This document shows positions 6,493 through 42,222 of a stretch of DNA of 64,000 nucleotides, piece after piece (position 1 is the first letter of the stretch; each line of letters opens with the position of its first letter). The position numbers and the translations under genes were made by a program. The DNA comes from a virus, in IMG/VR virus record IMGVR_UViG_3300047445_000153, positions 1 to 64,000 of that record; one strand, written 5' to 3'. Under the pieces are notes generated by a model. It saw only the letters and a program-made list of their open reading frames with translations, was not told the DNA's origin and made no database searches.

Positions 6493-8277
6493 ATGAGCAA
6501 CCCGTACCTCCAATCACTCCTCGATCGCGCTGCAAGTCGCTGGTCTACTGACCGAGCGGCGATGACCTATGGGGACTGGATGTGCGCGAACACGCACCTT
6601 GCCGACCGGCCCTTCAGCTTCAAGCGCTACCCGTTCCAGAAGCAGATCGCGGACGACATGCACCCGAACATGGACGTGATCAAGCCGTCTCAGGTCGGGC
6701 TGACCGAGCTTCAGATCCGCAAGGTGCTGGCCTTCATCGCCCGCAATCGTGGTGTGTCGGTGATCTACACGCTGCCCGACGAGAACATGATGCTGCGGAT
6801 CGCAGCAGGCCGGATCCGCCCGATCGTCGACGAGGAGAAGGTCTTCAACTTGGAGTCCATCGGCAGTGGCAAGCCCACCCGCACGAAGGAGATGATCCAG
6901 GTCGGCAAGAGCTTCCTCTACGTGACTGCGGCGGGCGAAGGCGCTGCGACCTCGATCTCAGCTGACATGGTCGTCAACGACGAAGTGGACTTGACCGATC
7001 AGGCGATCCTCGCGCTCTTCGGCTCGCGCTTGCAGGGCTCCGACTACCGGATCGCACACCGCTTCTCGACCCCGACGTTCGAGGACTTTGGCATCGACCA
7101 GACGTTCAGGGTGAGCGATCAGCACCAGTACCTGCTGAAGTGCCCGCACTGCAACCACTGGCAGCTGCCCGACTTCAACAAGACGTTCGTGCAGCTCCCC
7201 GGCCTCGGTGACCTCGAATTCGAGGAGATCGACCAGTCGATGATTGACTCAGGCCGTATCGACCTCGACCTCGCGACGGTCAACTGCGAGCACTGCGGCG
7301 GGCTGCTGGACCTCGGCGACCACGAGCGGCGTGAGTGGGTCGCGAAGTTCCCGAACCGCAAGCACGCGCGCGGCTATCAGGTCCTCCCCTTCTCGACCGA
7401 ACGGCTGGGTCCGAAGTACGTTATCACCGAGCTGTTCAAGTACAAGCGCAAGGACTTCATCCGAGGCTGGTACAACACCGTGCTCGGTCGCCCGCACACA
7501 GGCGGCGACCAGCGCCTGTCGGACGCAGACATCAACGCGTGCTTCACCGAGAACGTGCTCAAGCAGCCCCCGCTCATCGGCCTGCCCGCGTGGATCGGCG
7601 TTGACATGGGCCAGACCTGCCACATCGTGGTCGGCCAGGGCTACGACGTCAGCTCGATGCACGTGCGCGAGTTCATCGCGGTGCCGGTCGGCCAGCTGCT
7701 CACCGAGCTGGTGCGGATCTGCGACGAATACCGGGTCGTAGGCGGCTCCTGTGACCGCCACCCGTACACGCCGACCTCTGAGGCCGCGCGTGACGTCACG
7801 TACCGGCGCGTGCTGCCGAACGAGTACCGGGGCGCGAAGGAAATCAATCTCATCAAGGACCCGGCTGGCGACATCCTCTACATGCAGTCGAACCGGACGA
7901 TGTTGCTCGACGAGGTCGCGCGAGCGGTGCGTCTGCGCCGGATCAAGTTCTCGGGCTACGGCACGCAGAAGTCCGTGATCGCTGAGCACCTGAAGGACAT
8001 GGTCCGTAACGAGGAGCCCGAGAAGGAAGCGGAGTGGAAGAAGTTGAACGGCAACGACCACTACTTCCACGCGATGGGCTTCATGCTGAGCGCGGTCAAG
8101 CTGCACACGACCAACGCCTCCATCCTGATGAGCACCGAAGTGCGCAGTGTCATTGCCATTGCGGGTGCTGACATGGGCATCAACCGGACGCCAGGACTGG
8201 TGCAGCAGGTTAAACCCGGTGACAACAACCTAAGAAAGCTCTATGGCCACTCCCAAAGCAGCATCTTCCACTTCTAA
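6493..8277 (+). CDS. terL: terminase large subunit (GpA-like)
   Basis: YPFQ motif, Walker A KPSQVGLTE, Walker B VVNDEVD, FSTPT, CPHC/CEHC Zn motif, nuclease GVDMG and NDHYFHA. Confidence 0.9.
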   Translation: MSNPYLQSLLDRAASRWSTDRAAMTYGDWMCANTHLADRPFSFKRYPFQKQIADDMHPNMDVIKPSQVGLTELQIRKVLAFIARNRGVSVIYTLPDENMMLRIAAGRIRPIVDEEKVFNLESIGSGKPTRTKEMIQVGKSFLYVTAAGEGAATSISADMVVNDEVDLTDQAILALFGSRLQGSDYRIAHRFSTPTFEDFGIDQTFRVSDQHQYLLKCPHCNHWQLPDFNKTFVQLPGLGDLEFEEIDQSMIDSGRIDLDLATVNCEHCGGLLDLGDHERREWVAKFPNRKHARGYQVLPFSTERLGPKYVITELFKYKRKDFIRGWYNTVLGRPHTGGDQRLSDADINACFTENVLKQPPLIGLPAWIGVDMGQTCHIVVGQGYDVSSMHVREFIAVPVGQLLTELVRICDEYRVVGGSCDRHPYTPTSEAARDVTYRRVLPNEYRGAKEINLIKDPAGDILYMQSNRTMLLDEVARAVRLRRIKFSGYGTQKSVIAEHLKDMVRNEEPEKEAEWKKLNGNDHYFHAMGFMLSAVKLHTTNASILMSTEVRSVIAIAGADMGINRTPGLVQQVKPGDNNLRKLYGHSQSSIFHF

Positions 8278-32026: not shown

Positions 32027-32061
32027 AACTCCTTGGGCGCGCTGGCCCGCGCCCGTAAAAT
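32025..32061 (+). promoter_or_regulatory. putative promoter of fibre-Hint-rSAM module
   Basis: AAAACTCC TTGGGC-17-TAAAAT. Confidence 0.5.
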
Positions 32062-32085
32062 TCGGGAACCAGAGGACACCACCAC

Positions 32086-33567
32086 ATGCAGCAATACACT
32101 CAGATTCCAGACAGTGCGCGAGTCTCCGACTCGCTGCTGCCGCTCCTGAATAACGACCAGACCGCGATCTCGCGCAACTCCGGCCCGAACTTCCCGACCG
32201 TGGGGCTGGTCGTTGGCATGCCCTACTACAGCACGAGCCAGAACAAGCTCTATCGGCTGTCGAGCGTGTCACCGCTCACGTGGGTGGTCGAGCTGGATTA
32301 CACGCGTCCCTTCGCCTATCAGGACAGCGTGGACGCGGCTAACGCGAACGCGAACGCGCGGGTGTCGCGAGCTGGCGACACCATGACCGGTTACCTGACG
32401 CTGGTCAACGACCCGGTCTCCGCGCTGCACGCCGCGTCGAAACGGTACGTCGATGCACAGGCAACGAATGCAATCAACAGCGCGAACTCGCGGGTCTCGC
32501 GTGGCGGCGACAGCATGTCGGGGTTCCTGACGCTGTACACCGATCCACAGCAGCCCTACCACGCCGCGACGAAGAACTACGTCGACTACCTCTACAACGT
32601 GGTGCAGGGCGCGAAGCTGAACCGTAACGGTGACACGCTCGGAGAGGTCTTCAACAACGGCTGGTACCGCTCGAACGGCGTGACGGGCTGGTACAGCCAG
32701 ACCTTCGGCGGCGGGATCTTCATGCAGGATACGTCCAACGTGCGTATCTACGGCGGCAAGGGCTTCAGCACCGACTGGCACTCGCTCGAACAGGGCACGG
32801 GGATGATTTGGACGAGTGGCTACGGCTGGCTTCACGAGCGCTTCGCGTCCAAGAGCGCCGAGGGCGCCCTGACTTCGGTCGGTACGCTGAACAGCCAGCC
32901 GAGTGGCGTCGTGCTGCCGCAGGCTTTCTACCTCCAGAAGAGCGGCAGTCAGGTGCAGCTGGTGCGTACGCTCGGCAACTGCAACTGCAACTGCGCCTGC
33001 ACGTGCTTCCCGGCTGGGACGCGGATCCTGATGGGCGACCGCAAGACGTGGCGCACCGTTGAGTCGCTGATGGTTGGCGAGATCGTCATGACCCCCACCG
33101 GCCCCGAGCCGATCATCGAGATCGAGACGCCGTTCCTCGGCGAGCGCTCGATGTGCATGTTCGCCGACGGCTCGCTCAAGTGGACCGATGACCATGCGTT
33201 CTGGACGCGCCGCGACGGCGTGGAAGGCTTCGCGGTGGTCGACAAGGCCTCGTTCATGAACGGGGTCCATGCGGGCGTCGTGAAGGGCCTGAATGACCAT
33301 GACGACCTACTGGAGCTGAACGACAAGCTCGACGAGTTCGCGCATCTCGATGGCTGGAAGAAGAAACGCGTGTTCCGCTACCCCGCCCCCGCCGAGACCA
33401 AGGTCTACCTGCCGATCGTCGGTGGCTCCCACATGATCATCGCGGAAGGCTTCGTCGTCAGCGCTGGCATGGACGAAGCCACCTTCGACTACGACAGCTT
33501 CGAGTGGAAGGGCATGGCCCTCGCCCACGTGCCGCTCAACAAGGAGCTGTTCAATGCTCGTCCATAA
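32086..33567 (+). CDS. tail fibre with Cys-rich motif and C-terminal Hint domain
   Basis: GDTMTG..HAA(S/T)K.YVD fibre repeats; GWY..GGGIFMQD shufflon/fibre-like motif; NCNCNCACT; CFPAGTRI (Hint block A), TDDH (block B), VY..V..SH..AEGFVVS (block F/G). Confidence 0.8.
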   Translation: MQQYTQIPDSARVSDSLLPLLNNDQTAISRNSGPNFPTVGLVVGMPYYSTSQNKLYRLSSVSPLTWVVELDYTRPFAYQDSVDAANANANARVSRAGDTMTGYLTLVNDPVSALHAASKRYVDAQATNAINSANSRVSRGGDSMSGFLTLYTDPQQPYHAATKNYVDYLYNVVQGAKLNRNGDTLGEVFNNGWYRSNGVTGWYSQTFGGGIFMQDTSNVRIYGGKGFSTDWHSLEQGTGMIWTSGYGWLHERFASKSAEGALTSVGTLNSQPSGVVLPQAFYLQKSGSQVQLVRTLGNCNCNCACTCFPAGTRILMGDRKTWRTVESLMVGEIVMTPTGPEPIIEIETPFLGERSMCMFADGSLKWTDDHAFWTRRDGVEGFAVVDKASFMNGVHAGVVKGLNDHDDLLELNDKLDEFAHLDGWKKKRVFRYPAPAETKVYLPIVGGSHMIIAEGFVVSAGMDEATFDYDSFEWKGMALAHVPLNKELFNARP

Positions 33568-34255
33568 AAGCCTGATCCCCACGGATCTCTCAGAAGAAGA
33601 CGCCGCTCGAATCACCGACATCGTCACCGTGCTGCCTACGGAGACGGGCTTCGTCTTGCAGTGCGCATCGCTCAGCCTCTACTGGCAGTTCAACATGAAC
33701 CTCGTCCAGTATGGTAACGACATCATGTACTTGACCCGCACGCGCGGAGGTACGTGGGCCGTGATGTGGGCGACGGATCTGCACGAGTCGCGTGACAGCT
33801 GGTCTGAGGCGATGCTGCGCAAGAACGTCGATGAGTTCCGCCCGGTGGTGATGATCGGCATCAACCCCGAGAAGACCGACTACACGGCGATCCTCTTCTG
33901 CAACACACGCGAACCGAACAACCCGAACCCCACGGTCGACAACTCGACGGACAGCGGCGACATGGCCATGAAGCGGTTGATGCCGAGCATCGAACCGCTG
34001 CTGCAACGGCACTGGGCCAAGCACAAGCTACTCAAGCACACGAAGACGAACGACTCGCTCGCGGCGCTTGAGGCCCAGGTCGATCTGCTGACGAGCTGGT
34101 TGATCGAGCTGCTGCCTGCTGAGAAGGTGCAGCGACTCATCGATGCGGGCGTGCTGACGCTGAAGGATGAAGCCGCTACCCTCGACGACGTGGTGGCCTT
34201 CAAGACAGCCTTGCGAGAACGCCAGCAGGTCTACCTCACCACCATCGGCAAATGA
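33554..34255 (+). CDS. hypothetical protein in fibre/rSAM operon
   Basis: overlaps both neighbouring genes; helical C-terminus. Confidence 0.7.
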   Translation: MLVHKSLIPTDLSEEDAARITDIVTVLPTETGFVLQCASLSLYWQFNMNLVQYGNDIMYLTRTRGGTWAVMWATDLHESRDSWSEAMLRKNVDEFRPVVMIGINPEKTDYTAILFCNTREPNNPNPTVDNSTDSGDMAMKRLMPSIEPLLQRHWAKHKLLKHTKTNDSLAALEAQVDLLTSWLIELLPAEKVQRLIDAGVLTLKDEAATLDDVVAFKTALRERQQVYLTTIGK

Positions 34256-35598
34256 CAACCTTCGTCCTCAAAACGGCCGAGGGCCGCGACTTCTTCTACA
34301 ACAACATGCGCAGCACGCTGGTCGACGCCTGCACGGGTCGCCCCGTGCTCGCTCCGCGAGAGGTTGACACCCCTCGAAGCCCTGCCCCGCAAGACTTCCG
34401 CAAGTCGGAAACGATCCGGACGCTGAAGATCCAGATGGGTCTGTCGTGCAACTACAGCTGCGAGTATTGCTCGCAGCGGTTCGTGCCGCACGCGGAGCCC
34501 ACCGGCCCCTACTCGGTCGATCACTTCATCTCGCGCCTGAGCTGGAACGCCTCGCTCGCGGACGACGCCACGGTGGAGTTCTGGGGTGGCGAGCCACTGG
34601 TCTACTGGAAGACGCTGGTCCCGCTCGTCGAGCAGCTGCGCATTCGCTACCCGGCGCTGACCTTCAAGATGATCACGAACGGGTCGCTGCTCGATCCGAT
34701 GAAGGCGAGCTGGCTGATCGCGAATGGCTTCCACATCGGCATCTCGCACGACGGTCCTGGCCAAGCCGCACGCGGGCCGGACCCGCTCGATGATCCCGAG
34801 AAGCGCGAGGCGATCCTGATGCTGTACCGGCGCCTGCGACCGCTCGGGCGTATCAGTTTTAATGCAATGCTGCACTCGCAAAATACATCGCGTGCGGCGA
34901 TACAACAGTTCTTCGTCCGGCTGACGAACGACGCGGAAGTGCCCATCGGCGAGGGCATGTTTGTGGATGCCTACGACGAGGGCGGCAGGGGTATGTCTTT
35001 CCTTGACGCTCAGGATCACGTCGACTATCGTCGCAAGGCGTTCGACGAGCTGAAGGCGGGGATGGCTCTCAATTTCAGCTCGGTGACCGAGAAGATCTAC
35101 GACTTCGCAGACTCCTTGCAAACGGGTCGCTTGGCGTCCACCGTTGGCCAGAAGTGCGGTTCCGATCGCTCCGACAGCCTCACGGTGACGCTCGACGGCG
35201 ATGTCCTCACGTGCCAGAACGTATCGGCTGTCTCCGTCGCCCCGAACGGAAAGAGCCACCGGGCTGGCTCGATCGAAGACATGGCTGCGGTGCGCGTGCA
35301 GTCCTCGCGCCACTGGTCGACCCGCGAGCACTGTTCCAGCTGCCCTGTCGTGCAGCTATGCAAAGGCTCTTGCATGTTCCTCGAAGGCGATCTCTGGGAT
35401 GTCACGTGCGATACCGCCTACAGCGATAACGTCGTGTTCCTGGCGACTGCCCTCTTGGAGCTGACAGGCTGTACGTTGCAACGCATCGAGCCGATGACTG
35501 GTTCGCTGCCCGAAACCCGCCAGAGTGTCTTCGGACCTCTGGCGCATAAGCGGACCACCACCCGCAAAATCATACGGATCGAAACGGAAAAATCATGA
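34252..35598 (+). CDS. radical SAM protein with SPASM domain
   Basis: CNYSCEYC; FWGGEPL; ITNGSLL; ISHDG; C..GDVLTC..CSSC..LCKGSC..C SPASM cysteines. Confidence 0.92.
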   Translation: MTTFVLKTAEGRDFFYNNMRSTLVDACTGRPVLAPREVDTPRSPAPQDFRKSETIRTLKIQMGLSCNYSCEYCSQRFVPHAEPTGPYSVDHFISRLSWNASLADDATVEFWGGEPLVYWKTLVPLVEQLRIRYPALTFKMITNGSLLDPMKASWLIANGFHIGISHDGPGQAARGPDPLDDPEKREAILMLYRRLRPLGRISFNAMLHSQNTSRAAIQQFFVRLTNDAEVPIGEGMFVDAYDEGGRGMSFLDAQDHVDYRRKAFDELKAGMALNFSSVTEKIYDFADSLQTGRLASTVGQKCGSDRSDSLTVTLDGDVLTCQNVSAVSVAPNGKSHRAGSIEDMAAVRVQSSRHWSTREHCSSCPVVQLCKGSCMFLEGDLWDVTCDTAYSDNVVFLATALLELTGCTLQRIEPMTGSLPETRQSVFGPLAHKRTTTRKIIRIETEKS

Positions 35599-35984
35599 GC
35601 ACACCGCAAGCACCACAGCCACAGCAAGACCCGATGCCCCTCATCCGCACGTTGCAGGCGCAGCGCAACATGGCGCTCGACCAGCTGGCCGACACCAGCG
35701 CCGCGCTCGAACACGTGCAAGCCGTACTGCGTGGCACGCAGGAACTGGCCGCGAAGCAGCAGTCGGAGATCGACGATCTGAACATGCGGATGGGCAAGAC
35801 GCTCGCCGCGCTGGCGAGCATGCAAGACTGCAACGCGAAGCTCACCGAGCAGAACCTCGATCTGCAAATCGATCTGGACGAGGCCCGTCGAGTTCCGGAC
35901 GCGGAGATCGCGGTGGCCGTAGAGTCACCGGCAGGCGTGCTGACGCTGCCGGTGGCTTATCCGTCTGCTTCGGACGAGCTGTAA
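35595..35984 (+). CDS. coiled-coil hypothetical protein
   Basis: coupled to rSAM stop; LQAQRNMALD heptads. Confidence 0.65.
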   Translation: MSTPQAPQPQQDPMPLIRTLQAQRNMALDQLADTSAALEHVQAVLRGTQELAAKQQSEIDDLNMRMGKTLAALASMQDCNAKLTEQNLDLQIDLDEARRVPDAEIAVAVESPAGVLTLPVAYPSASDEL

Positions 35985-36098: not shown

Positions 36099-36124
36099 AA
36101 AGGACACCGAACGGTGTCCTTTTT
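36099..36124 (+). terminator. intrinsic terminator
   Basis: AAAGGACACC-gaac-GGTGTCCTTT plus T-run. Confidence 0.8.
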
Positions 36125-36137
36125 CGTTTGTGGTGCA

Positions 36138-36177
36138 AAGAAACTCTTTGGACCAACGTAAACGCTCCCCTTAAAAT
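36138..36177 (+). promoter_or_regulatory. putative promoter of lysis cassette
   Basis: AAACTCT TTGGAC-18-TAAAAT. Confidence 0.45.
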
Positions 36178-36207
36178 TTCGGCACTCACCACCACCACGA
36201 GTGCTCG

Positions 36208-37514: not shown

Positions 37515-38008
37515 AAATCACCTTGATCGTTTCAGCCATAGTCGGATTGCTTGGGACTGCTATGGGATGGGGACTCACGCACGGTTATTACCGCAGCGTG
37601 CTGGCTGAGAACGCATTGGCCCTCTCTCAAGCGCAGCAACGCGCGGATTCACTCGCGCTCTTCGCACAAACCCAGTCGACGCTGGTCATCAACCAGATCG
37701 ACGCGACCTATCAGGAAAAGCTCCATGAACAAGATGCTCTCCACGCTCGCGATCTCGCTGATGTTCGTTCCGGTGCTCTGCGGTTGCGGGACTCCGGCGC
37801 CAAGTGCCCCGCCCAAGTTTCAGCTGCCCCCGGCGCCAGCGTCGGTGACGGTCAAGCAGGAGCCGAACTTTCGGCTGCGGCTACTGAATTTCTTCTCAGT
37901 GAAGCCGAACGAGCTGACCGCGTCGCCATTCAGCTTGGCGCCTGCCAACAAGTAATCGAGTCCGACCGCAAGACCCTTGACCAACTCTTCAACAGGATTT
38001 CTGAATGA
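37511..38008 (+). CDS. i-spanin (Rz-like)
   Basis: N-terminal TM, coiled coil, DVRSGALRLR, AERADRVA.QL.ACQ. Confidence 0.85.
   Translation: MKITLIVSAIVGLLGTAMGWGLTHGYYRSVLAENALALSQAQQRADSLALFAQTQSTLVINQIDATYQEKLHEQDALHARDLADVRSGALRLRDSGAKCPAQVSAAPGASVGDGQAGAELSAAATEFLLSEAERADRVAIQLGACQQVIESDRKTLDQLFNRISE
37725..37955 (+). CDS. o-spanin (Rz1-like) embedded in i-spanin
   Basis: AGGA RBS; MNKMLSTLAISLMFVPVLCG-C lipobox; Pro-rich. Confidence 0.8.
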   Translation: MNKMLSTLAISLMFVPVLCGCGTPAPSAPPKFQLPPAPASVTVKQEPNFRLRLLNFFSVKPNELTASPFSLAPANK

Positions 38009-41000
38009 CAACGAATACCGGCGTTCCAACAAACCCGGATGGCCAGACACTGGCGCTCGTCGTGGCGCCAGTCCTCTCCACCACGCCGCACGCTGCGAGC
38101 AAGATCCTGTACGGGTCTGGCGCACCTTCGGCTTCCATCGGCGTTGACGGTGACTTCTACCGCAACCTCGACAACGACGACATGTATGGCCCGAAACTGG
38201 CTGGGGCATGGCCGGATGGGTACTCCATCCGCGGCTTCCAGGGGGACCCCGGTCCGGCTGGACCTGCTGGTCTTCTGGACCCCGAACAACTGGACGACAT
38301 CGAGACGTCGGCCGAGGCAGCGGCAGCGAGCGCAGCGGCATCGGCGCAAAGCGCCGTAGCAGCTGCGGCAAGCGCGACGGCGGCGAACACGTCGAAGGTC
38401 GCAGCGGGCACGAGCGCAACAAACGCCGCAGCCTCCGAGACGGCCTCGAACGCGAGCAAGGTCGCGGCAGCAGCGAGCGCAACCGCAGCATCTGGATTCG
38501 CCACGCAGGCTGCATCTAGCAACACTGGTGCGACCACTGCTGCGACAGACTCGGCCGCAAGCGCAACCGCCGCGAACGCCTCGAAGATCGCAGCAGGGAT
38601 CTCGGAAACGAACGCAGCCGCCTCAGCCGTGGCAGCGAACACGTCGAAGGTCGCAGCGGGCGTCTCGGAAGGCAACGCGGCAGCAGCTGCTGTCGCAGCG
38701 GGCATCGCTCGGGATGAAGCACAGACGGCAGCGCAGCAGGCCCTGCAAGGCGCCGCGCCGATCGTGTCCCCTGCTTTCACCGGCAACCCGACCGCACCGA
38801 CACCGGCGACTTCCGACAACGATACTTCGGTCGCGACCACCGCGTTCGTGAAGGCAGCAATCGCAGCAGCGGGTGGTGGCGGCGGCGGCGCAGTGTCGAC
38901 CGTCGCGGGCCGCACGGGCGACATCCTGCTCACAATCGCAGACGTGACGGGCGGCGCACCGCTGGCCTCCCCCACCTTCACGGGAGATCCGAAGGCACCG
39001 ACCCCGGCAACCAGCGACAACGACACGTCGATCGCGACCACCGCGTTCGTGAAAGCGCAGGCCTACGCCCCGCTCTTGTCGCCTGCCCTGACGGGTACGC
39101 CGACTGCACCGACTGCGGCGGCTGGGACCAGCACAACCCAGCTGGCCACCACCGCGTTCGTCACCGCAGCAATGGCAGCGGGCGCAGGCAGCGGCGATGC
39201 GGGTGTGCGCTTCGTCGAGTCGTTCCCCTCGGGCGGCACCGACGACACGACCCAGCTGACCAACGCGCTCGCGTGGCTTCAGGCTGCTCCGCGTCGCACG
39301 CTGGCGATGCAGCACAACAAGGCCTACACGCTCGGCCACCAGATCACGGTGCAAGGCGCGTCGTGGTTCCGCATCGAAGTCAACGGCGCGACCATCAAGG
39401 CAGCGAATGGCATGCCCTGCCAGTTCGGTGACTGGATGCTGAACTTCGTGAGCTGTACGGATGGTGTGATCGTCGACCTGAACTTGGACGGCAACCGCGC
39501 GAACCGCCCGGTGGTCGTTGGTCTGCAAGAGGCACACAACATCCGCGTGTGGAACAACTGCAAGCGCATCACGTTCGTGCGTACCCAGTCCGACAATGGG
39601 TGCTGTGACGGCTTCTACATCGGTGCGGACGACGTGACGAACCTGTCCACGTTCCCGACCGACATCCGGCAGATCGATTGCGGCGCAAACAACTCGTTCC
39701 GCAACGGGCTGTCGCTGATCAACTCGGTCAACTTCGAGGACTACAGAGGCGCCTACAACAACTCGGTCGGCACGGCGCCTGAAGATGGTGTGGATTGCGA
39801 ACCGAACGGTGACGTGGCTTCTGGTGACCTGGGCAACATCAACCCGCGCTTCTACCACACGACGGCCAACGGCAACAGCGGTCTCGGGTTCCAGATCTTC
39901 CTCGACTCCAACCACGGTGTGAAGCTGTACGACGTCACGGCCAGCGGCAACATCTCGGGTGCAGTCAGCGCATTCCGCGGTGGTGTCGAGATCTACGGCA
40001 TCACGCTGGAAGGTAGGCCGGGGATGGATACCGACCGGGGGGTGATCGACTTGGCGGGTGCTGGCGCGGGCTTGAGCGTCATCAAGGACGTCGTGGCGCG
40101 TGACTACATCACGAACGACAACGACCTCCGTCCGATTGTCTTCGTCGACGTCGACGTGGCGGGACCTGTCACGGTCGATAACGTGAAGACGTTCGACTGT
40201 GACTGCCCGATCCTGATTGCCAACTCCCCGGTTGAGCTGGCGCAGAACCTCGAAGCGCATGGCCAGATGGGTGGCTACACCGTCAAGCTGATGGCGGGGG
40301 CTGACCAGTCTACGCTCAAGGGCATCACGGCCCACGACGGCCAGCTGGGCGTGTACGTCAACGCACCGGATGTCTCGGTGAACGACGTGAAGCTCCACAA
40401 TCTGGAAGTCACCGCCCCGTTGATCGTGTTCGACACGGGCGCGCTGCGGCCCTCGCTCGACGGTGTCGAGCTGTTCCAAGACGCGGGCGTGCCGTCCGGC
40501 CAGATCGGGGTGTCCTTCGCACAGGCTCCGGTACGCGCGACCAACATCGTCGGTCACGTGCGGACTGGCACGGCCTGGACGCCGACGACGCTCATCTCGT
40601 TCGCAGGCGGCACCACGGGCTCGCTGATCGCCAACAACTCGCCGTCGACGGTCAGCTCGGGTGTGGCTCCGCTCGCCTCCCCGGCTTTCACTGGCAACCC
40701 CACCGCGCCCACCCCGGCGACGTCCGACAACGATACATCGGTCGCGACGACCGCTTTCGTGAAGGCGGCAATCGCCGCAGCTGGCACGGGTAGTGGCGCA
40801 CCGCTCGACTCCCCGGTCTTCACCGGCAACCCGACCGCACCGACACCGGCCACGTCGGACAACGACACGAGCCTCGCGACGACGGCGTTCGTGAAAGCGC
40901 AGGCGTACGCACCGCTCGCCTCCCCCGCCTTCACCGGCAACCCGACCGCGCCCACTCCGAGCGCTGGTGACAACGACACGTCGGTCGCGACGACGGCCTT

Positions 41001-42222
41001 TGTCACGGCTGCGATCGCAGCTGCGGGCACGGGTGGTGGCGGCACGACCACGGTGCGGCAGACGGCGCTGCGCAACTGGAAGAAGTCGAACACCAGCAAG
41101 ATCGCGGCGCTCATGGGCCGTGGCCAGTCTGGTTTCGGCCGTGGCCGGATCCTCGGCATCGGCGACTCGTTCACGGCGGGGTTCGCGGGAGCAGGCACGT
41201 CCTTCACGAACGGACGCTCGCAGTCGTTCCTCACGCATCTCGCCCGAGCGATGGCCGCACGGGGCATGAAGGCGACGGCGGATTGGGCGGTGGGTGACGG
41301 CAACTCGGGCGACGTGCCGCTGGTCTACGATCCGCGACTGGTGCTCAGCGGGGGTGCGAGCCTGCTGGATACCTCTTTCAAGTGCCTCGGTGGCAGCGGC
41401 TGGACGATGGATGGTACCGGCAACCGGATCACCTTCACGCCGGTGGACGCGGCAGGCGTGGCGATTGCGTTCGACACGGTCGAAGTGCTGGTGATGTGTA
41501 ACAACAACACCGGGGTGTCGGGCAACTTCGACGTGTTCTACAACGGCAATTTCACCACGCCTGCGCAGACGGTCACCAGCAACGACATCATGGGCGTGAA
41601 GAAGGTCACGCTCACGGTGCCCGGTGCGGCTGGCACGACGGCGAACTCGGTGACGTTCCAGCGCAAGACCAATACGACGTTCATCGCGGCGGTCGGCACG
41701 CGGGTTGCATCCAAACCCGGCATCGAGATCATCAACGCGGGTAGCACGGGCACGCCGCTGGCGACGTATGCAGCAGCCCCCGGCTCTACCAGCGGCTCGG
41801 GTGACTCGAACACGTGGAACACGCGTGCAGCGGCGAACGTGCTGATGGACACGAACGCGGTCAACGTGACGTTTATCAACGGCTGGTACAACGACAAGGA
41901 TGCAGCCTCGACGATCGCCGCCACGCAGACGCAGCTCGCCAACCTGATCACCGCCGCGAAGGCTTGGGGTGATGTGGTCTTCATCGGCTACGCGCCGCTC
42001 GACCCGAGCGACACCACGCTGACCCTCTACAACCAGTGGCAGGATGCGATGTATGCGACGTGTATCGCCGCTGACATCCCGATCATCGATCCGCCCGCAC
42101 TGCTGCCGGTGTATGCAACCGGCGTGTCGTACGGGCTGTACGGTGACTCGCTGCACTTGAACGGTTCCGGCCATGCGCTCATCGCGCGATCCATCCTCGA
42201 AGCTATGAGTGACATCGCGTAA
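38005..42222 (+). CDS. tailspike/fibre with beta-helix depolymerase-like and SGNH esterase domains
   Basis: Ala-rich Stf-like stalk; 6 SPxFTGxPTAPT..ATTAFV repeats; GTDDTTQL and DG-rich beta-helix; GDSFT..NAG..N..DSLH SGNH blocks. Confidence 0.85.
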   Translation: MTTNTGVPTNPDGQTLALVVAPVLSTTPHAASKILYGSGAPSASIGVDGDFYRNLDNDDMYGPKLAGAWPDGYSIRGFQGDPGPAGPAGLLDPEQLDDIETSAEAAAASAAASAQSAVAAAASATAANTSKVAAGTSATNAAASETASNASKVAAAASATAASGFATQAASSNTGATTAATDSAASATAANASKIAAGISETNAAASAVAANTSKVAAGVSEGNAAAAAVAAGIARDEAQTAAQQALQGAAPIVSPAFTGNPTAPTPATSDNDTSVATTAFVKAAIAAAGGGGGGAVSTVAGRTGDILLTIADVTGGAPLASPTFTGDPKAPTPATSDNDTSIATTAFVKAQAYAPLLSPALTGTPTAPTAAAGTSTTQLATTAFVTAAMAAGAGSGDAGVRFVESFPSGGTDDTTQLTNALAWLQAAPRRTLAMQHNKAYTLGHQITVQGASWFRIEVNGATIKAANGMPCQFGDWMLNFVSCTDGVIVDLNLDGNRANRPVVVGLQEAHNIRVWNNCKRITFVRTQSDNGCCDGFYIGADDVTNLSTFPTDIRQIDCGANNSFRNGLSLINSVNFEDYRGAYNNSVGTAPEDGVDCEPNGDVASGDLGNINPRFYHTTANGNSGLGFQIFLDSNHGVKLYDVTASGNISGAVSAFRGGVEIYGITLEGRPGMDTDRGVIDLAGAGAGLSVIKDVVARDYITNDNDLRPIVFVDVDVAGPVTVDNVKTFDCDCPILIANSPVELAQNLEAHGQMGGYTVKLMAGADQSTLKGITAHDGQLGVYVNAPDVSVNDVKLHNLEVTAPLIVFDTGALRPSLDGVELFQDAGVPSGQIGVSFAQAPVRATNIVGHVRTGTAWTPTTLISFAGGTTGSLIANNSPSTVSSGVAPLASPAFTGNPTAPTPATSDNDTSVATTAFVKAAIAAAGTGSGAPLDSPVFTGNPTAPTPATSDNDTSLATTAFVKAQAYAPLASPAFTGNPTAPTPSAGDNDTSVATTAFVTAAIAAAGTGGGGTTTVRQTALRNWKKSNTSKIAALMGRGQSGFGRGRILGIGDSFTAGFAGAGTSFTNGRSQSFLTHLARAMAARGMKATADWAVGDGNSGDVPLVYDPRLVLSGGASLLDTSFKCLGGSGWTMDGTGNRITFTPVDAAGVAIAFDTVEVLVMCNNNTGVSGNFDVFYNGNFTTPAQTVTSNDIMGVKKVTLTVPGAAGTTANSVTFQRKTNTTFIAAVGTRVASKPGIEIINAGSTGTPLATYAAAPGSTSGSGDSNTWNTRAAANVLMDTNAVNVTFINGWYNDKDAASTIAATQTQLANLITAAKAWGDVVFIGYAPLDPSDTTLTLYNQWQDAMYATCIAADIPIIDPPALLPVYATGVSYGLYGDSLHLNGSGHALIARSILEAMSDIA

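What the first reader, a model, noticed from the sequence alone, without database searches (positions are those of the whole stretch)
32086..35984. Tail fibre-(NC)n-Hint plus radical SAM/SPASM operon: candidate RiPP-like maturation of a virion protein
Seen: four overlapping ORFs lie between a promoter-like site (32033-32061) and a terminator (36099). They are a fibre-like protein ending ...LGNCNCNCACT|CFPAGTRI..., an unknown 233-aa protein, a CxxxCxxC radical SAM with SPASM cysteines, and a coiled-coil protein. Established: rSAM/SPASM enzymes install thioether crosslinks on Cys-rich peptides (sacti-/ranthipeptides), and Hint domains autocleave before their first Cys. Inference: Hint cleavage at Thr306|Cys307 exposes a C-terminal Cys-X repeat core on the fibre, which the rSAM crosslinks or otherwise modifies. 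That would give a chemically modified receptor-binding tip, i.e. a RiPP-type pathway acting on a structural protein. I do not know a characterised example.
Basis: partly seen in the sequence, partly recalled or inferred. Interest (0 to 1): 0.92.

Follow-up and report, generated by a model that had tools for sequence, protein, structure and literature searches.

The report
Radical-SAM module for cysteine-laddered phage fibre
This phage makes a tail fibre whose body ends in an Asn-Cys "ladder" capped by a self-cutting Hint domain, and the iron-sulfur enzyme encoded two genes downstream is found next to such ladders in nearly every related phage, so phages probably finish their fibre tips chemically.

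Summary
Four overlapping genes (32086-35984) lie between a weak promoter-like site and a strong terminator. They encode a fibre ending ...GNCNCNCACT|CFPAGT..., an unknown 233-aa protein, a radical SAM enzyme with a complete SPASM domain, and a 129-aa helical protein. The window is an 81.9-kb JWF-like siphovirus.

- From the enzyme: 102 of 109 loci with enough upstream DNA carry a ladder. Four of the 7 misses are variant ladders, one contig is cut, and two are real misses.
- From the Hint domain: 18 of 18 assessable ladder-bearing fibres have the enzyme. None of 9 ladder-less Hint fibres has a close one.
- From the bare NCNCNCNC DNA pattern: 56 of 72 terminal ladders have the enzyme, against 1 of 48 other matches.

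So the enzyme tracks the ladder, not the Hint. In phages without a Hint domain the ladder is the natural C-terminus. That supports the idea that Hint cleavage exposes it.

The chemistry is untested. Asn-Cys thioether links are my best guess. None of my six searches of the paper library found this system. The scan has noted the same system before on other DNA.

The parts
32033..32061 (+). Weak promoter-like site (TTGGGC, 16 nt, TAAAAT). The -10 element is part of TAAAATTCGG, a motif seen again only before the endolysin gene.
   Evidence: sequence. (not called by the consensus scan). (motif occurs 2 times in the window, 0.06 expected).
32086..32976 (+). Tail-fibre body (aa 1-297). It contains tail-fibre repeat motifs and a PilV/shufflon-like tip region.
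   Evidence: PHROG tail-fibre families, E 4e-6 to 1e-3. (Shufflon_N, E 2.6e-5, below cut-off). (matches to annotated fibres). The gene sits between the J-like protein and the lysis genes.
32977..33003 (+). Asn-Cys ladder N298-T306 (NCNCNCACT), the predicted mature C-terminus.
   Evidence: the ladder starts with Asn-Cys in 68 of 68 distinct tails.
33004..33567 (+). Hint-type self-cleaving C-terminal domain (C307-P493, plus stop codon).
   Evidence: profile against PDB hits an intein-domain protein at E 1e-9 and PI-SceI at 1e-6. Cys1 and the block-B His are invariant; language-model features match Hint clusters, 0.94.
33554..34255 (+). 233-aa accessory protein of unknown fold. It is present in JWF-like phages and in two Hint-less loci.
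   Evidence: No Pfam, PHROG, NCBIfam, PDB-profile or Atlas match. 19 proteins including the query itself. Homologues in L018 and L019.
34252..35598 (+). Radical SAM enzyme with a full SPASM domain (three predicted [4Fe-4S] sites). No RRE-type leader-recognition domain was detected at its N-terminus.
   Evidence: C66, C70, C73 and seven SPASM Cys are invariant in 32 of 32 diverse members; nearest solved chains are 8vpo, anSME 4k37 and 5wgg, at E 1e-7 to 2e-4.
35595..35984 (+). 129-aa helical protein that may not belong to the system. BLAST found homologues only in some of the JWF-like loci whose rows I saw.
   Evidence: weak myosin-tail match. (p129 matches in L005 and L006; JWF has a 133-aa gene in the same place).
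36099..36132 (+). Intrinsic terminator that closes the operon.
   Evidence: 10-bp stem, 5 GC pairs, T-rich tail. (sequence). JWF has an annotated terminator at the same position.

Best explanation
This is a fibre-maturation module of a JWF-like siphovirus.

Shown:
- The four genes form one late transcription unit, with overlapping stop and start codons.
- The fibre is made as a 493-aa precursor: body, Asn-Cys ladder, then Hint domain.
- The downstream enzyme has the cysteines for one radical SAM cluster and two SPASM iron-sulfur clusters.
- That enzyme co-occurs with such ladders across many phages.

Inferred:
- The enzyme acts on the ladder of the fibre itself. It most likely abstracts a hydrogen from the carbon skeleton of the residue before or near each Cys (usually Asn) and joins it to a Cys sulfur, giving thioether links.
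- Those links would lie within a chain (NCNC can be read as overlapping NxxC motifs) or between the chains of the fibre, which I assume is trimeric by analogy and did not test.
- The Hint domain then, or beforehand, shifts the T306-C307 peptide bond onto the Cys307 thiol. The thioester is resolved and the 187-aa cap leaves. The mature fibre ends in ...NCNCNCACT.
- The result is a covalently stiffened, protease- and redox-resistant distal tip.
- The 233-aa protein probably helps present the tail to the enzyme, because the enzyme has no recognisable recognition domain of its own.
For: 1. Starting from the enzyme. I pooled 124 loci. Of the 109 with more than 2.7 kb upstream, 102 carry a same-strand upstream ORF with a terminal or Hint-capped ladder by a strict rule. 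At 60% enzyme identity, 11 of 11 assessable clusters have one. At 70%, 18 of 22 do.

2. Starting from the Hint domain. Of 28 loci with a full-length homologue, 19 have a ladder. 18 of those 19 have the enzyme (34-87% identity), and the 19th locus ends 350 bp after the fibre gene. None of the 9 ladder-less loci has a close enzyme. In 19 loci with only intein-like partial matches there is no ladder and no enzyme.

3. Starting from the DNA pattern for NCNCNCNC, with no homology used. 56 of 72 terminal ladders in ORFs of 60 aa or more have the enzyme, down to 21% identity. 14 of the 16 without it have under 2.7 kb of DNA after the ORF. Only 1 of 14 internal matches and 0 of 34 matches in short ORFs have it. 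In 57 of 57 cases the enzyme is on the same strand, and in 53 it lies downstream.

4. Only the ladder and the enzyme are constant. Accessory genes, fibre bodies and phage types vary.

5. Hint-less proteins stop 0-3 residues after the last Cys. Predicted cleavage products stop 0-1 residues after it.

6. Hint catalytic residues are conserved and profile matches to inteins are significant.

7. Ladder make-up. Cys alternates with Asn: 260 of the 410 residues that precede a Cys are Asn, then Cys 44, Ala 42, Asp 36. This resembles the acceptor tolerance reported for NxxcB, which is Asn, also Ala, Gln and Asp, with Cys strictly required (PMC9389541, passages).

8. SPASM enzymes do install thioethers on whole proteins: CrpC/CrpA (PMC13692751, abstract and passages), and QhpD, which that paper cites.

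9. The enzyme clade is rare in bacterial genomes. 1 of 400 scored genomes in the class sample has it, and that one is the Burkholderia paludis contig used as the centre.
Against: There is no chemical, proteomic or structural evidence of any modification or cleavage.

The enzyme reaches no curated family cut-off. Its best NCBIfam match is PapB, at 57.7 bits against a cut-off of 340. Its reaction type is therefore a guess.

Two loci with ample upstream DNA have no ladder (L127, L130).

Many loci are near-duplicates, so counts overstate independence. At 70% enzyme identity there are only 22 assessable clusters.

A run of Cys could serve on its own, by binding metal or forming disulfides.

No RRE-type recognition domain was found in the enzyme, and the 233-aa protein matches nothing.
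Confidence: 0.6

Rival explanations
1. The enzyme acts on the ladder but does not make thioethers. Options include converting Cys to formylglycine or dehydroalanine, C-methylation or epimerisation, or building a metal or iron-sulfur site held by the Cys.
For: anSME is among the nearest solved relatives and aligns over nearly the whole protein, residues 64-377 (TIGR03942 aligns over 62-374). Many tails end in CC, CCC or CCGCC, which look like metal-binding motifs. No curated thioether family cut-off is met.
Against: The anSME score is far below its cut-off (46.6 against 349.45). The sulfatase motif C/S-x-P-x-R (recalled) is absent from the ladder. The invariant Asn before the first Cys (68 of 68) and the Asn/Ala/Asp pattern fit an acceptor-donor pair better than a Cys-only reaction.
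Confidence: 0.2
2. The ladder is self-sufficient, working as a disulfide or metal knot that holds the fibre tip together. On this view the enzyme has another substrate and travels with the fibre genes only as part of a shared module.
For: Cys-x-Cys runs bind metals in other proteins (general knowledge). The enzyme lacks a recognisable substrate-recognition domain.
Against: The linkage survives complete turnover of the neighbouring genes, fibre body and phage type. It holds down to 21% enzyme identity and to ladder-bearing ORFs as short as 67-71 aa. Hint fibres without a ladder lack the enzyme (0 of 9). On one contig, a ladder-less Hint fibre lies about 5 kb from a 26%-identity enzyme. The same contig carries a separate 71-aa ladder ORF, which the pattern scan picked up in another locus together with that enzyme (L055 and L222).
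Confidence: 0.08
3. The ladder proteins, or the shorter ones at least, are not virion parts. They would be precursors of a released RiPP-like product such as a bacteriocin or signal, with the Hint or the fibre-like body acting as carrier.
For: Some ladder ORFs are only 67-134 aa. About ten 300-aa relatives are a Cys-rich domain plus Hint with no obvious fibre body.
Against: In the window, in JWF and in many loci the ladder ends a protein with tail-fibre repeats that sits directly after the J-like tail protein. In L013, L016 and L018 the small ladder ORF follows a long ORF that ends in a heptad-like sequence, which I took for a fibre shaft without testing it. No transporter or leader protease was seen in the ORF maps or in the Pfam scans of a subset of neighbours.
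Confidence: 0.1

Closest known systems
NxxcB/NxxcA (streptococcal RaS-RiPP; Cys-to-Asn beta-thioether)
   Same: A radical SAM enzyme joins a Cys sulfur to the beta-carbon of an Asn that lies N-terminal to it. The acceptor may also be Ala, Gln or Asp, and Cys is required (PMC9389541, passages). The ladder shows the same residue preferences, and NCNC contains the NxxC spacing.
   Different: The substrate there is a short leader-bearing peptide with one motif. Here it is the C-terminal tail of a 113-690-aa structural protein with 2-9 Cys from the ladder start to its end. Homology between the enzymes was not tested, because no NxxcB sequence was at hand. The chemistry here is untested.
CrpC/CrpA of Methanococcus voltae and QhpD/QhpC (SPASM enzymes that cross-link whole proteins)
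   Same: SPASM radical SAM enzymes with three [4Fe-4S] clusters install ranthionine thioethers on Cys-rich protein substrates encoded beside them (PMC13692751, abstract and passages).
   Different: Those are cellular proteins of archaea and bacteria. That paper mentions no phage (0 occurrences of 'phage'). The QhpD model scores 46.9 bits against its cut-off of 453. QhpD uses a recognition domain for a leader, and none is seen here.
Anaerobic sulfatase-maturating enzyme (anSME, PDB 4k37)
   Same: It is among the nearest solved structures, aligned over residues 64-377. It also acts on full-size proteins and also lacks an N-terminal recognition domain (the last point is recalled).
   Different: The TIGR03942 score is 46.6 against a cut-off of 349.45. 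anSME oxidises one Cys or Ser in a sulfatase motif that the fibre lacks.
Hedgehog and bacterial intein-like (Hint) autoprocessing domains
   Same: An N-terminal Cys and a block-B (T/S)xxH motif are conserved. Profile matches to inteins are significant. The domain lies C-terminal to the part that is kept.
   Different: It has no C-terminal His-Asn and no downstream extein, so it cannot splice. It caps phage fibres, a use found in none of the 4 papers returned by my search.
C-terminal intramolecular chaperone domains of phage fibres and endosialidases (Peptidase_S74)
   Same: A C-terminal domain of a phage fibre that removes itself after doing its job (recalled knowledge). This is the closest analogue in function for the Hint cap.
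   Different: No Peptidase_S74 match appears in Pfam. The predicted chemistry is a Cys thioester, not a Ser-Lys dyad.

Membership tests
Radical SAM superfamily | CxxxCxxC motif that binds the SAM-cleaving [4Fe-4S] cluster | tested here: met
   C66, C70 and C73 are invariant in 32 of 32 diverse members. PF04055 scores 28.7 bits, just under its cut-off of 29.5. PHROG 1802 gives E 1.9e-60.
SPASM subfamily | C-terminal seven-Cys motif (CX9-15GX4C ... CX2CX5CX3C ... C) for two auxiliary clusters | tested here: met
   TIGR04085 scores 34.7 bits against a cut-off of 27. C302, G316, C321, C361, C364, C370, C374 and C386 are invariant in 32 of 32.
Anaerobic sulfatase maturase (TIGR03942) | Score at or above the equivalog cut-off, and a sulfatase C/S-x-P-x-R substrate | tested here: not met
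   46.6 bits against 349.45. No such motif is in the ladder.
PapB-type ranthipeptide maturase (NF047865) | Score at or above the equivalog cut-off, with an N-terminal recognition (RRE) domain | tested here: not met
   57.7 bits against 340, and only residues 55-171 are matched. No family covers the first ~50 residues among the best stretches of the families listed.
QhpD (TIGR03906) | Score at or above the equivalog cut-off | tested here: not met
   46.9 bits against 453.
Sacti-/ranthipeptide RiPP pathway | Enzyme-installed Cys thioether links on the precursor | not testable with these tools
   This needs mass spectrometry. Only genomic linkage and residue pattern are available.
Hint domain | N-terminal nucleophile Cys and a block-B (T/S)xxH motif | tested here: met
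   C1 and H64 are invariant in 11 of 11 sequences, within WTDDH, WSEEH or MTREH. C133 is invariant in 26 of 26.
Hint domain | Significant similarity to known Hint or intein sequences | tested here: met
   Profile against PDB: 8w20_A at E 1e-9, PI-SceI at 1.4e-6, Prp8 inteins at 5e-3. Pfam on the single sequence gives only E 0.12. Precomputed PF05203 is carried by 11 of 26 proteins in the search result. Atlas features score 0.94.
Hint domain | Hint fold and actual self-cleavage | not testable with these tools
Cleavage needs an experiment.
Intein (protein splicing) | C-terminal His-Asn followed by a nucleophile of a downstream extein | tested here: not met
   The domain ends the protein. The block-G-like stretch reads ...VVSAG, not HN.
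Phage tail fibre | Similarity to known fibres and a position in the tail module | tested here: met
   PHROG tail-fibre families match at E 4e-6 to 1e-3. tblastn matches annotated fibres. The gene follows the J-like protein (phrog_31, E 3.5e-170) and precedes the endolysin. Presence in the virion was not tested.

The most novel reading that the evidence does not exclude
Many phages covalently finish their receptor-end fibre tips with a dedicated radical SAM enzyme. Relatives of that enzyme are encoded at more than 550 places in IMG/VR contigs. The enzyme would turn a C-terminal Asn-Cys ladder into a stack of thioether rings or inter-chain staples. In some lineages a Hint domain acts as a removable cap whose thioester chemistry sets the new C-terminus. 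This would be the first enzyme-installed RiPP-type cross-link in a virus particle, and a new determinant of fibre stability or host recognition.
Probability: 0.35. Interest if true: 0.9.

Novelty: new variant of a known kind. Interest (0 to 1): 0.8.

Why it matters
Tail fibres decide which bacteria a phage can attack and how well particles survive outside cells. The maturation steps I know of (recalled) are chaperones, self-cleaving chaperone domains and metal binding.

A dedicated radical enzyme that rewrites the fibre tip would add a new layer to virion assembly. It would extend RiPP-type chemistry from small peptides to virus structural proteins. It would also give RiPP enzymology a large, untouched enzyme clade: 262 clusters at E 1e-30 or better, with a simple repetitive substrate.

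There is a practical point too. Fibres of this kind may not fold or function when expressed without their enzyme. That matters for engineered phages and for receptor-binding-protein tools.

Tried and rejected
No fold search was possible as a result.

The 233-aa protein gave nothing: Pfam, PHROG and NCBIfam, Atlas features (best 0.85, noise level), and a profile against PDB.

A profile comparison of the 233-aa family with the RSP15-ORF047-like family showed no relation (probability 0.15%). The ORF047-like profile had no PDB hit.

I suspected that the ORF046-like and ~205-aa accessory proteins are 2OG-Fe(II) oxygenases, because of an HxD...H pattern. Support is weak. Two L019 ORFs hit PF13759 below its cut-off (17.2 and 22 bits against 27). 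No PDB profile hit appeared.

The fibre body has no PDB relative.

The class-wide genome sample found no further prophage copies. The single-protein scan of species genomes found only 4.

No RNA holder was listed for the operon, so expression could not be examined.

Papers. Six searches (for JWF) found no description of a radical SAM enzyme acting on a phage fibre or of Hint-capped fibres. Passages read in PMC12801897, PMC3556154, PMC5259590, PMC10783043 and PMC5468394 were irrelevant. A search for the RSP15 paper found nothing useful. The original JWF and RSP15 papers and any virion proteomics in them were not seen. Supplements were closed and were not requested.

I rejected the intein reading (no extein, no terminal Asn) and a Peptidase_S74 chaperone (no match).

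Full report
**What is there.**
The window is the first 64 kb of an 81,905-bp virus record rated complete. Its gene order around the finding matches Achromobacter phage JWF gene for gene: J-like tail protein, small lectin-like protein, fibre, unknown, radical SAM, small helical protein, terminator, endolysin, membrane proteins.

The fibre reads ...LGNCNCNCACT followed by CFPAGTRI. Cys is at positions 299, 301, 303 and 305, and the junction is T306|C307. A 10-bp-stem terminator follows at 36099.

The promoter is weak by consensus and was not called by the scan. It reads TTGGGC-16-TAAAAT. Its -10 region is part of a motif, TAAAATT(T)CGG, that occurs only twice in 64 kb: before this operon and before the endolysin gene, with 0.06 expected.

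Contigs from three other rhizosphere metagenome runs reproduce the ladder-Hint junction without a difference. It is therefore not an assembly artefact.

**The parts.**
- Fibre: it carries tail-fibre repeat motifs (PHROG tail-fibre families, E 4e-6 to 1e-3) and a PilV-like tip region (Shufflon_N, below cut-off).
- Enzyme: a radical SAM protein with a complete SPASM domain. TIGR04085 scores 34.7 bits against a cut-off of 27. In an alignment of 32 members as low as 29% identical, the three radical SAM cysteines and all seven SPASM cysteines are invariant.
- It meets no curated equivalog cut-off. PapB scores 57.7 of 340, anSME 46.6 of 349, and QhpD 46.9 of 453. Its nearest solved relatives are distant: 8vpo, anSME 4k37 and 5wgg, at E 1e-7 to 2e-4.
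- It belongs to a large clade. 262 clusters at 50% identity score E 1e-30 or better among 1.84 billion representatives.
- The clade was not found in sampled bacterial genomes. In a class-level sample of 400 scored genomes, only the centre genome has it, and that is the Burkholderia paludis contig that carries a related copy.

**Is the C-terminal domain a Hint?**
Pfam on the single sequence gives only E 0.12. A profile of 11 homologous domains does better. It hits an intein-domain protein (8w20_A, E 1e-9), PI-SceI (1.4e-6), Prp8 inteins and the gp41-1 intein in the PDB.

The first Cys and the His of a (T/S)xxH motif are invariant. 11 of the 26 proteins in the search result carry precomputed PF05203. 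Language-model features place residues 307-493 among Hint clusters, with score 0.94 and 176 shared features.

The domain ends the protein and has no terminal His-Asn. It can therefore cleave at its N-terminus but cannot splice.

**The linkage test.**
I ran it from three starting points.

(a) From the enzyme. I pooled 124 loci: the window, IMG/VR loci, and genome loci. Some contigs appear more than once.
- 109 loci have more than 2.7 kb upstream, and 102 of them carry an upstream same-strand ladder by a strict automated rule.
- Of the 7 misses, L052, L103, L109 and L144 have variant ladders that I saw by eye.
- L014 starts with the gene that normally follows the fibre.
- L127 and L130 have no ladder.
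- By enzyme cluster, 11 of 11 assessable clusters have a ladder at 60% identity, and 18 of 22 at 70%.

(b) From the Hint domain.
- 28 loci have a full-length homologue, and 19 have a ladder before it. 18 of those 19 encode the enzyme. The 19th locus ends 350 bp after the fibre gene.
- The 9 Hint fibres without a ladder have no close enzyme.
- Two of those 9, L055 and L056, have a 26%-identity enzyme 5 kb away. The same contigs turned out to carry a separate 71-aa ladder ORF (L222 and L238).
- 19 loci with only N-terminal, intein-like matches have neither ladder nor enzyme.

(c) From the DNA pattern for NCNCNCNC alone. There were 120 loci.
- 72 put the ladder within 40 residues of the end of an ORF of 60 aa or more. 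56 of these have the enzyme at E 1e-8 or better, at 21-54% identity. 14 of the 16 without it have under 2.7 kb of DNA after the ORF.
- 14 internal matches give 1 enzyme.
- 34 matches in ORFs under 60 aa give none.
- The enzyme is on the ladder's strand in 57 of 57 cases and downstream in 53, at a median distance of 1,326 nt.

Fisher tests give p = 2e-7 for (b) and 2e-18 for (c). These overstate the case, because many loci are close relatives.

**What varies and what does not.**
Accessory genes differ between lineages:
- the 233-aa protein (window, JWF, L018, L019);
- an RSP15-ORF047-like protein;
- an ORF046-like protein or a ~205-aa protein;
- a second radical SAM enzyme (L022, L023).

Fibre bodies also vary, from collagen-like repeats (L047) to ~120-aa ORFs that follow a long ORF ending in a heptad-like sequence, which I took for a fibre shaft without testing it (L013, L016, L018).

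Cultured Ralstonia phage RSP15 is filed under Ackermannviridae. Its 'side tail fiber' protein ends ...NCQCGN, with no Hint, three genes before a 48%-identical enzyme. Only the ladder and the enzyme are constant.

**The Hint is separable.**
On a tree of 79 enzyme sequences, the labels 'Hint-capped' and 'terminal' need 3 changes. Well-supported branches force 2 of them. This is a FastTree tree, and long branches are noted in its output.

Among 68 distinct predicted mature tails, the terminal type stops 0-3 residues after the last Cys, and 0 in 33 of 50. Hint-capped tails would stop 0-1 residues after it if cut before the Hint Cys.

**Clues to the chemistry (inference).**
The ladder always opens with Asn-Cys (68 of 68). 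The residue before a Cys is Asn in 260 of 410 cases, then Cys 44, Ala 42 and Asp 36.

A review of streptococcal RaS-RiPPs reports that NxxcB links Cys sulfur to the beta-carbon of Asn. It tolerates Ala, Gln and Asp as acceptor and strictly needs Cys (PMC9389541, passages). The ladder's make-up parallels this. NCNC also contains the NxxC spacing, so the window's ladder can be read as three overlapping NxxC motifs.

SPASM enzymes that install thioethers on whole proteins are documented: CrpC/CrpA, and QhpD as cited there (PMC13692751, abstract and passages). I therefore favour Asn-Cys thioethers, within or between chains. Nothing here excludes another Cys chemistry.

**Comparison and novelty.**
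The module works like a RiPP maturation pair that has been moved onto a virion protein. It is not a member of any curated maturase family that I tested. The Hint is a non-splicing autoprocessing domain used as a fibre cap.

My searches of the paper library found no description of either feature in phages. The original JWF and RSP15 papers were not available to me.

Earlier notes of this scan describe the same system on other DNA. I re-derived the linkage independently and checked the CrpC/CrpA paper they named. I rate it a new variant of a known kind, of high interest, with the chemistry and the cleavage still to be shown.

Noticed in passing
window 32056-32065 and 36172-36182: The motif TAAAATT(T)CGG occurs only twice in the 64-kb window, 20-36 nt before the fibre operon and before the endolysin gene (0.06 expected). 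It may be a late-promoter element of this phage.
   Followed up: partly
L048, L050, L051, L057, L058, L060, L061 (match at 8001 in each): Homologous Hint domains cap ORFs of up to 1,501 aa that have no Cys ladder and no nearby radical SAM enzyme. I assumed these ORFs are fibre-like and did not annotate them. The Hint seems to be a general removable C-terminal cap.
   Followed up: partly
L045 and L047 (one 109-kb IMG/VR contig): One phage contig carries two separate ladder-Hint-enzyme sets, with enzymes 51% and 34% identical to the window's. One of the fibres has collagen-like GPP repeats before NCNCNCQCPCS.
   Followed up: no
L177:44-943 (- strand): This is a third architecture. A Cys-rich NC domain and ladder are followed by a 167-aa non-Hint C-terminal domain with no Pfam match. 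The enzyme (43% identity) lies upstream.
   Followed up: partly
P0022-P0030 (about 300 aa): These short relatives consist of an 80-100-aa region packed with Asn-Cys and Gln-Cys units, then the Hint domain. They have no obvious fibre body.
   Followed up: no
L019:3690-4535 and L019:4517-5149; L002:5141-5971 and relatives: Accessory proteins in Hint-less loci show an HxD...H pattern and weak, sub-threshold matches to 2OG-Fe(II) oxygenase PF13759. No PDB support was found. They may be a second modifying enzyme.
   Followed up: partly
window 35540-35598 and the enzyme C-termini in L001-L020: After a variable linker, the enzymes end in a conserved basic and hydrophobic tail, for example RKIIRI, RKIIPI, KRRVIPI, KKIIPL. 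It may be a docking peptide.
   Followed up: no
L003 (Ralstonia jumbo phage RP12, record 84042-89152): Three radical SAM genes lie within four consecutive genes. One of them is 26% identical to the window's enzyme. No ladder of the CxCxC type was seen in ORFs of 80 aa or more.
   Followed up: no
L055/L222 and L056/L238 (two IMG/VR contigs): A ladder-less Hint fibre, a separate 71-aa ORF ending ...ACNCNCNCNCSRGIL, and a 26%-identity radical SAM enzyme sit on the same contig.
   Followed up: partly
window 38005-42222: A second long ORF (1,405 aa) lies after the lysis genes. The related record L004 has a 1,436-aa ORF in the matching place, and JWF annotates a 'tail protein' after its lysis genes. 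Homology among these was not tested, and its C-terminus was not examined.
   Followed up: no
window 32086-35984: Seven rhizosphere metagenome runs held half or more of the sampled words for this stretch, and one of them may be the source of the DNA. Contigs with no differences were laid from the four runs tested.
   Followed up: partly
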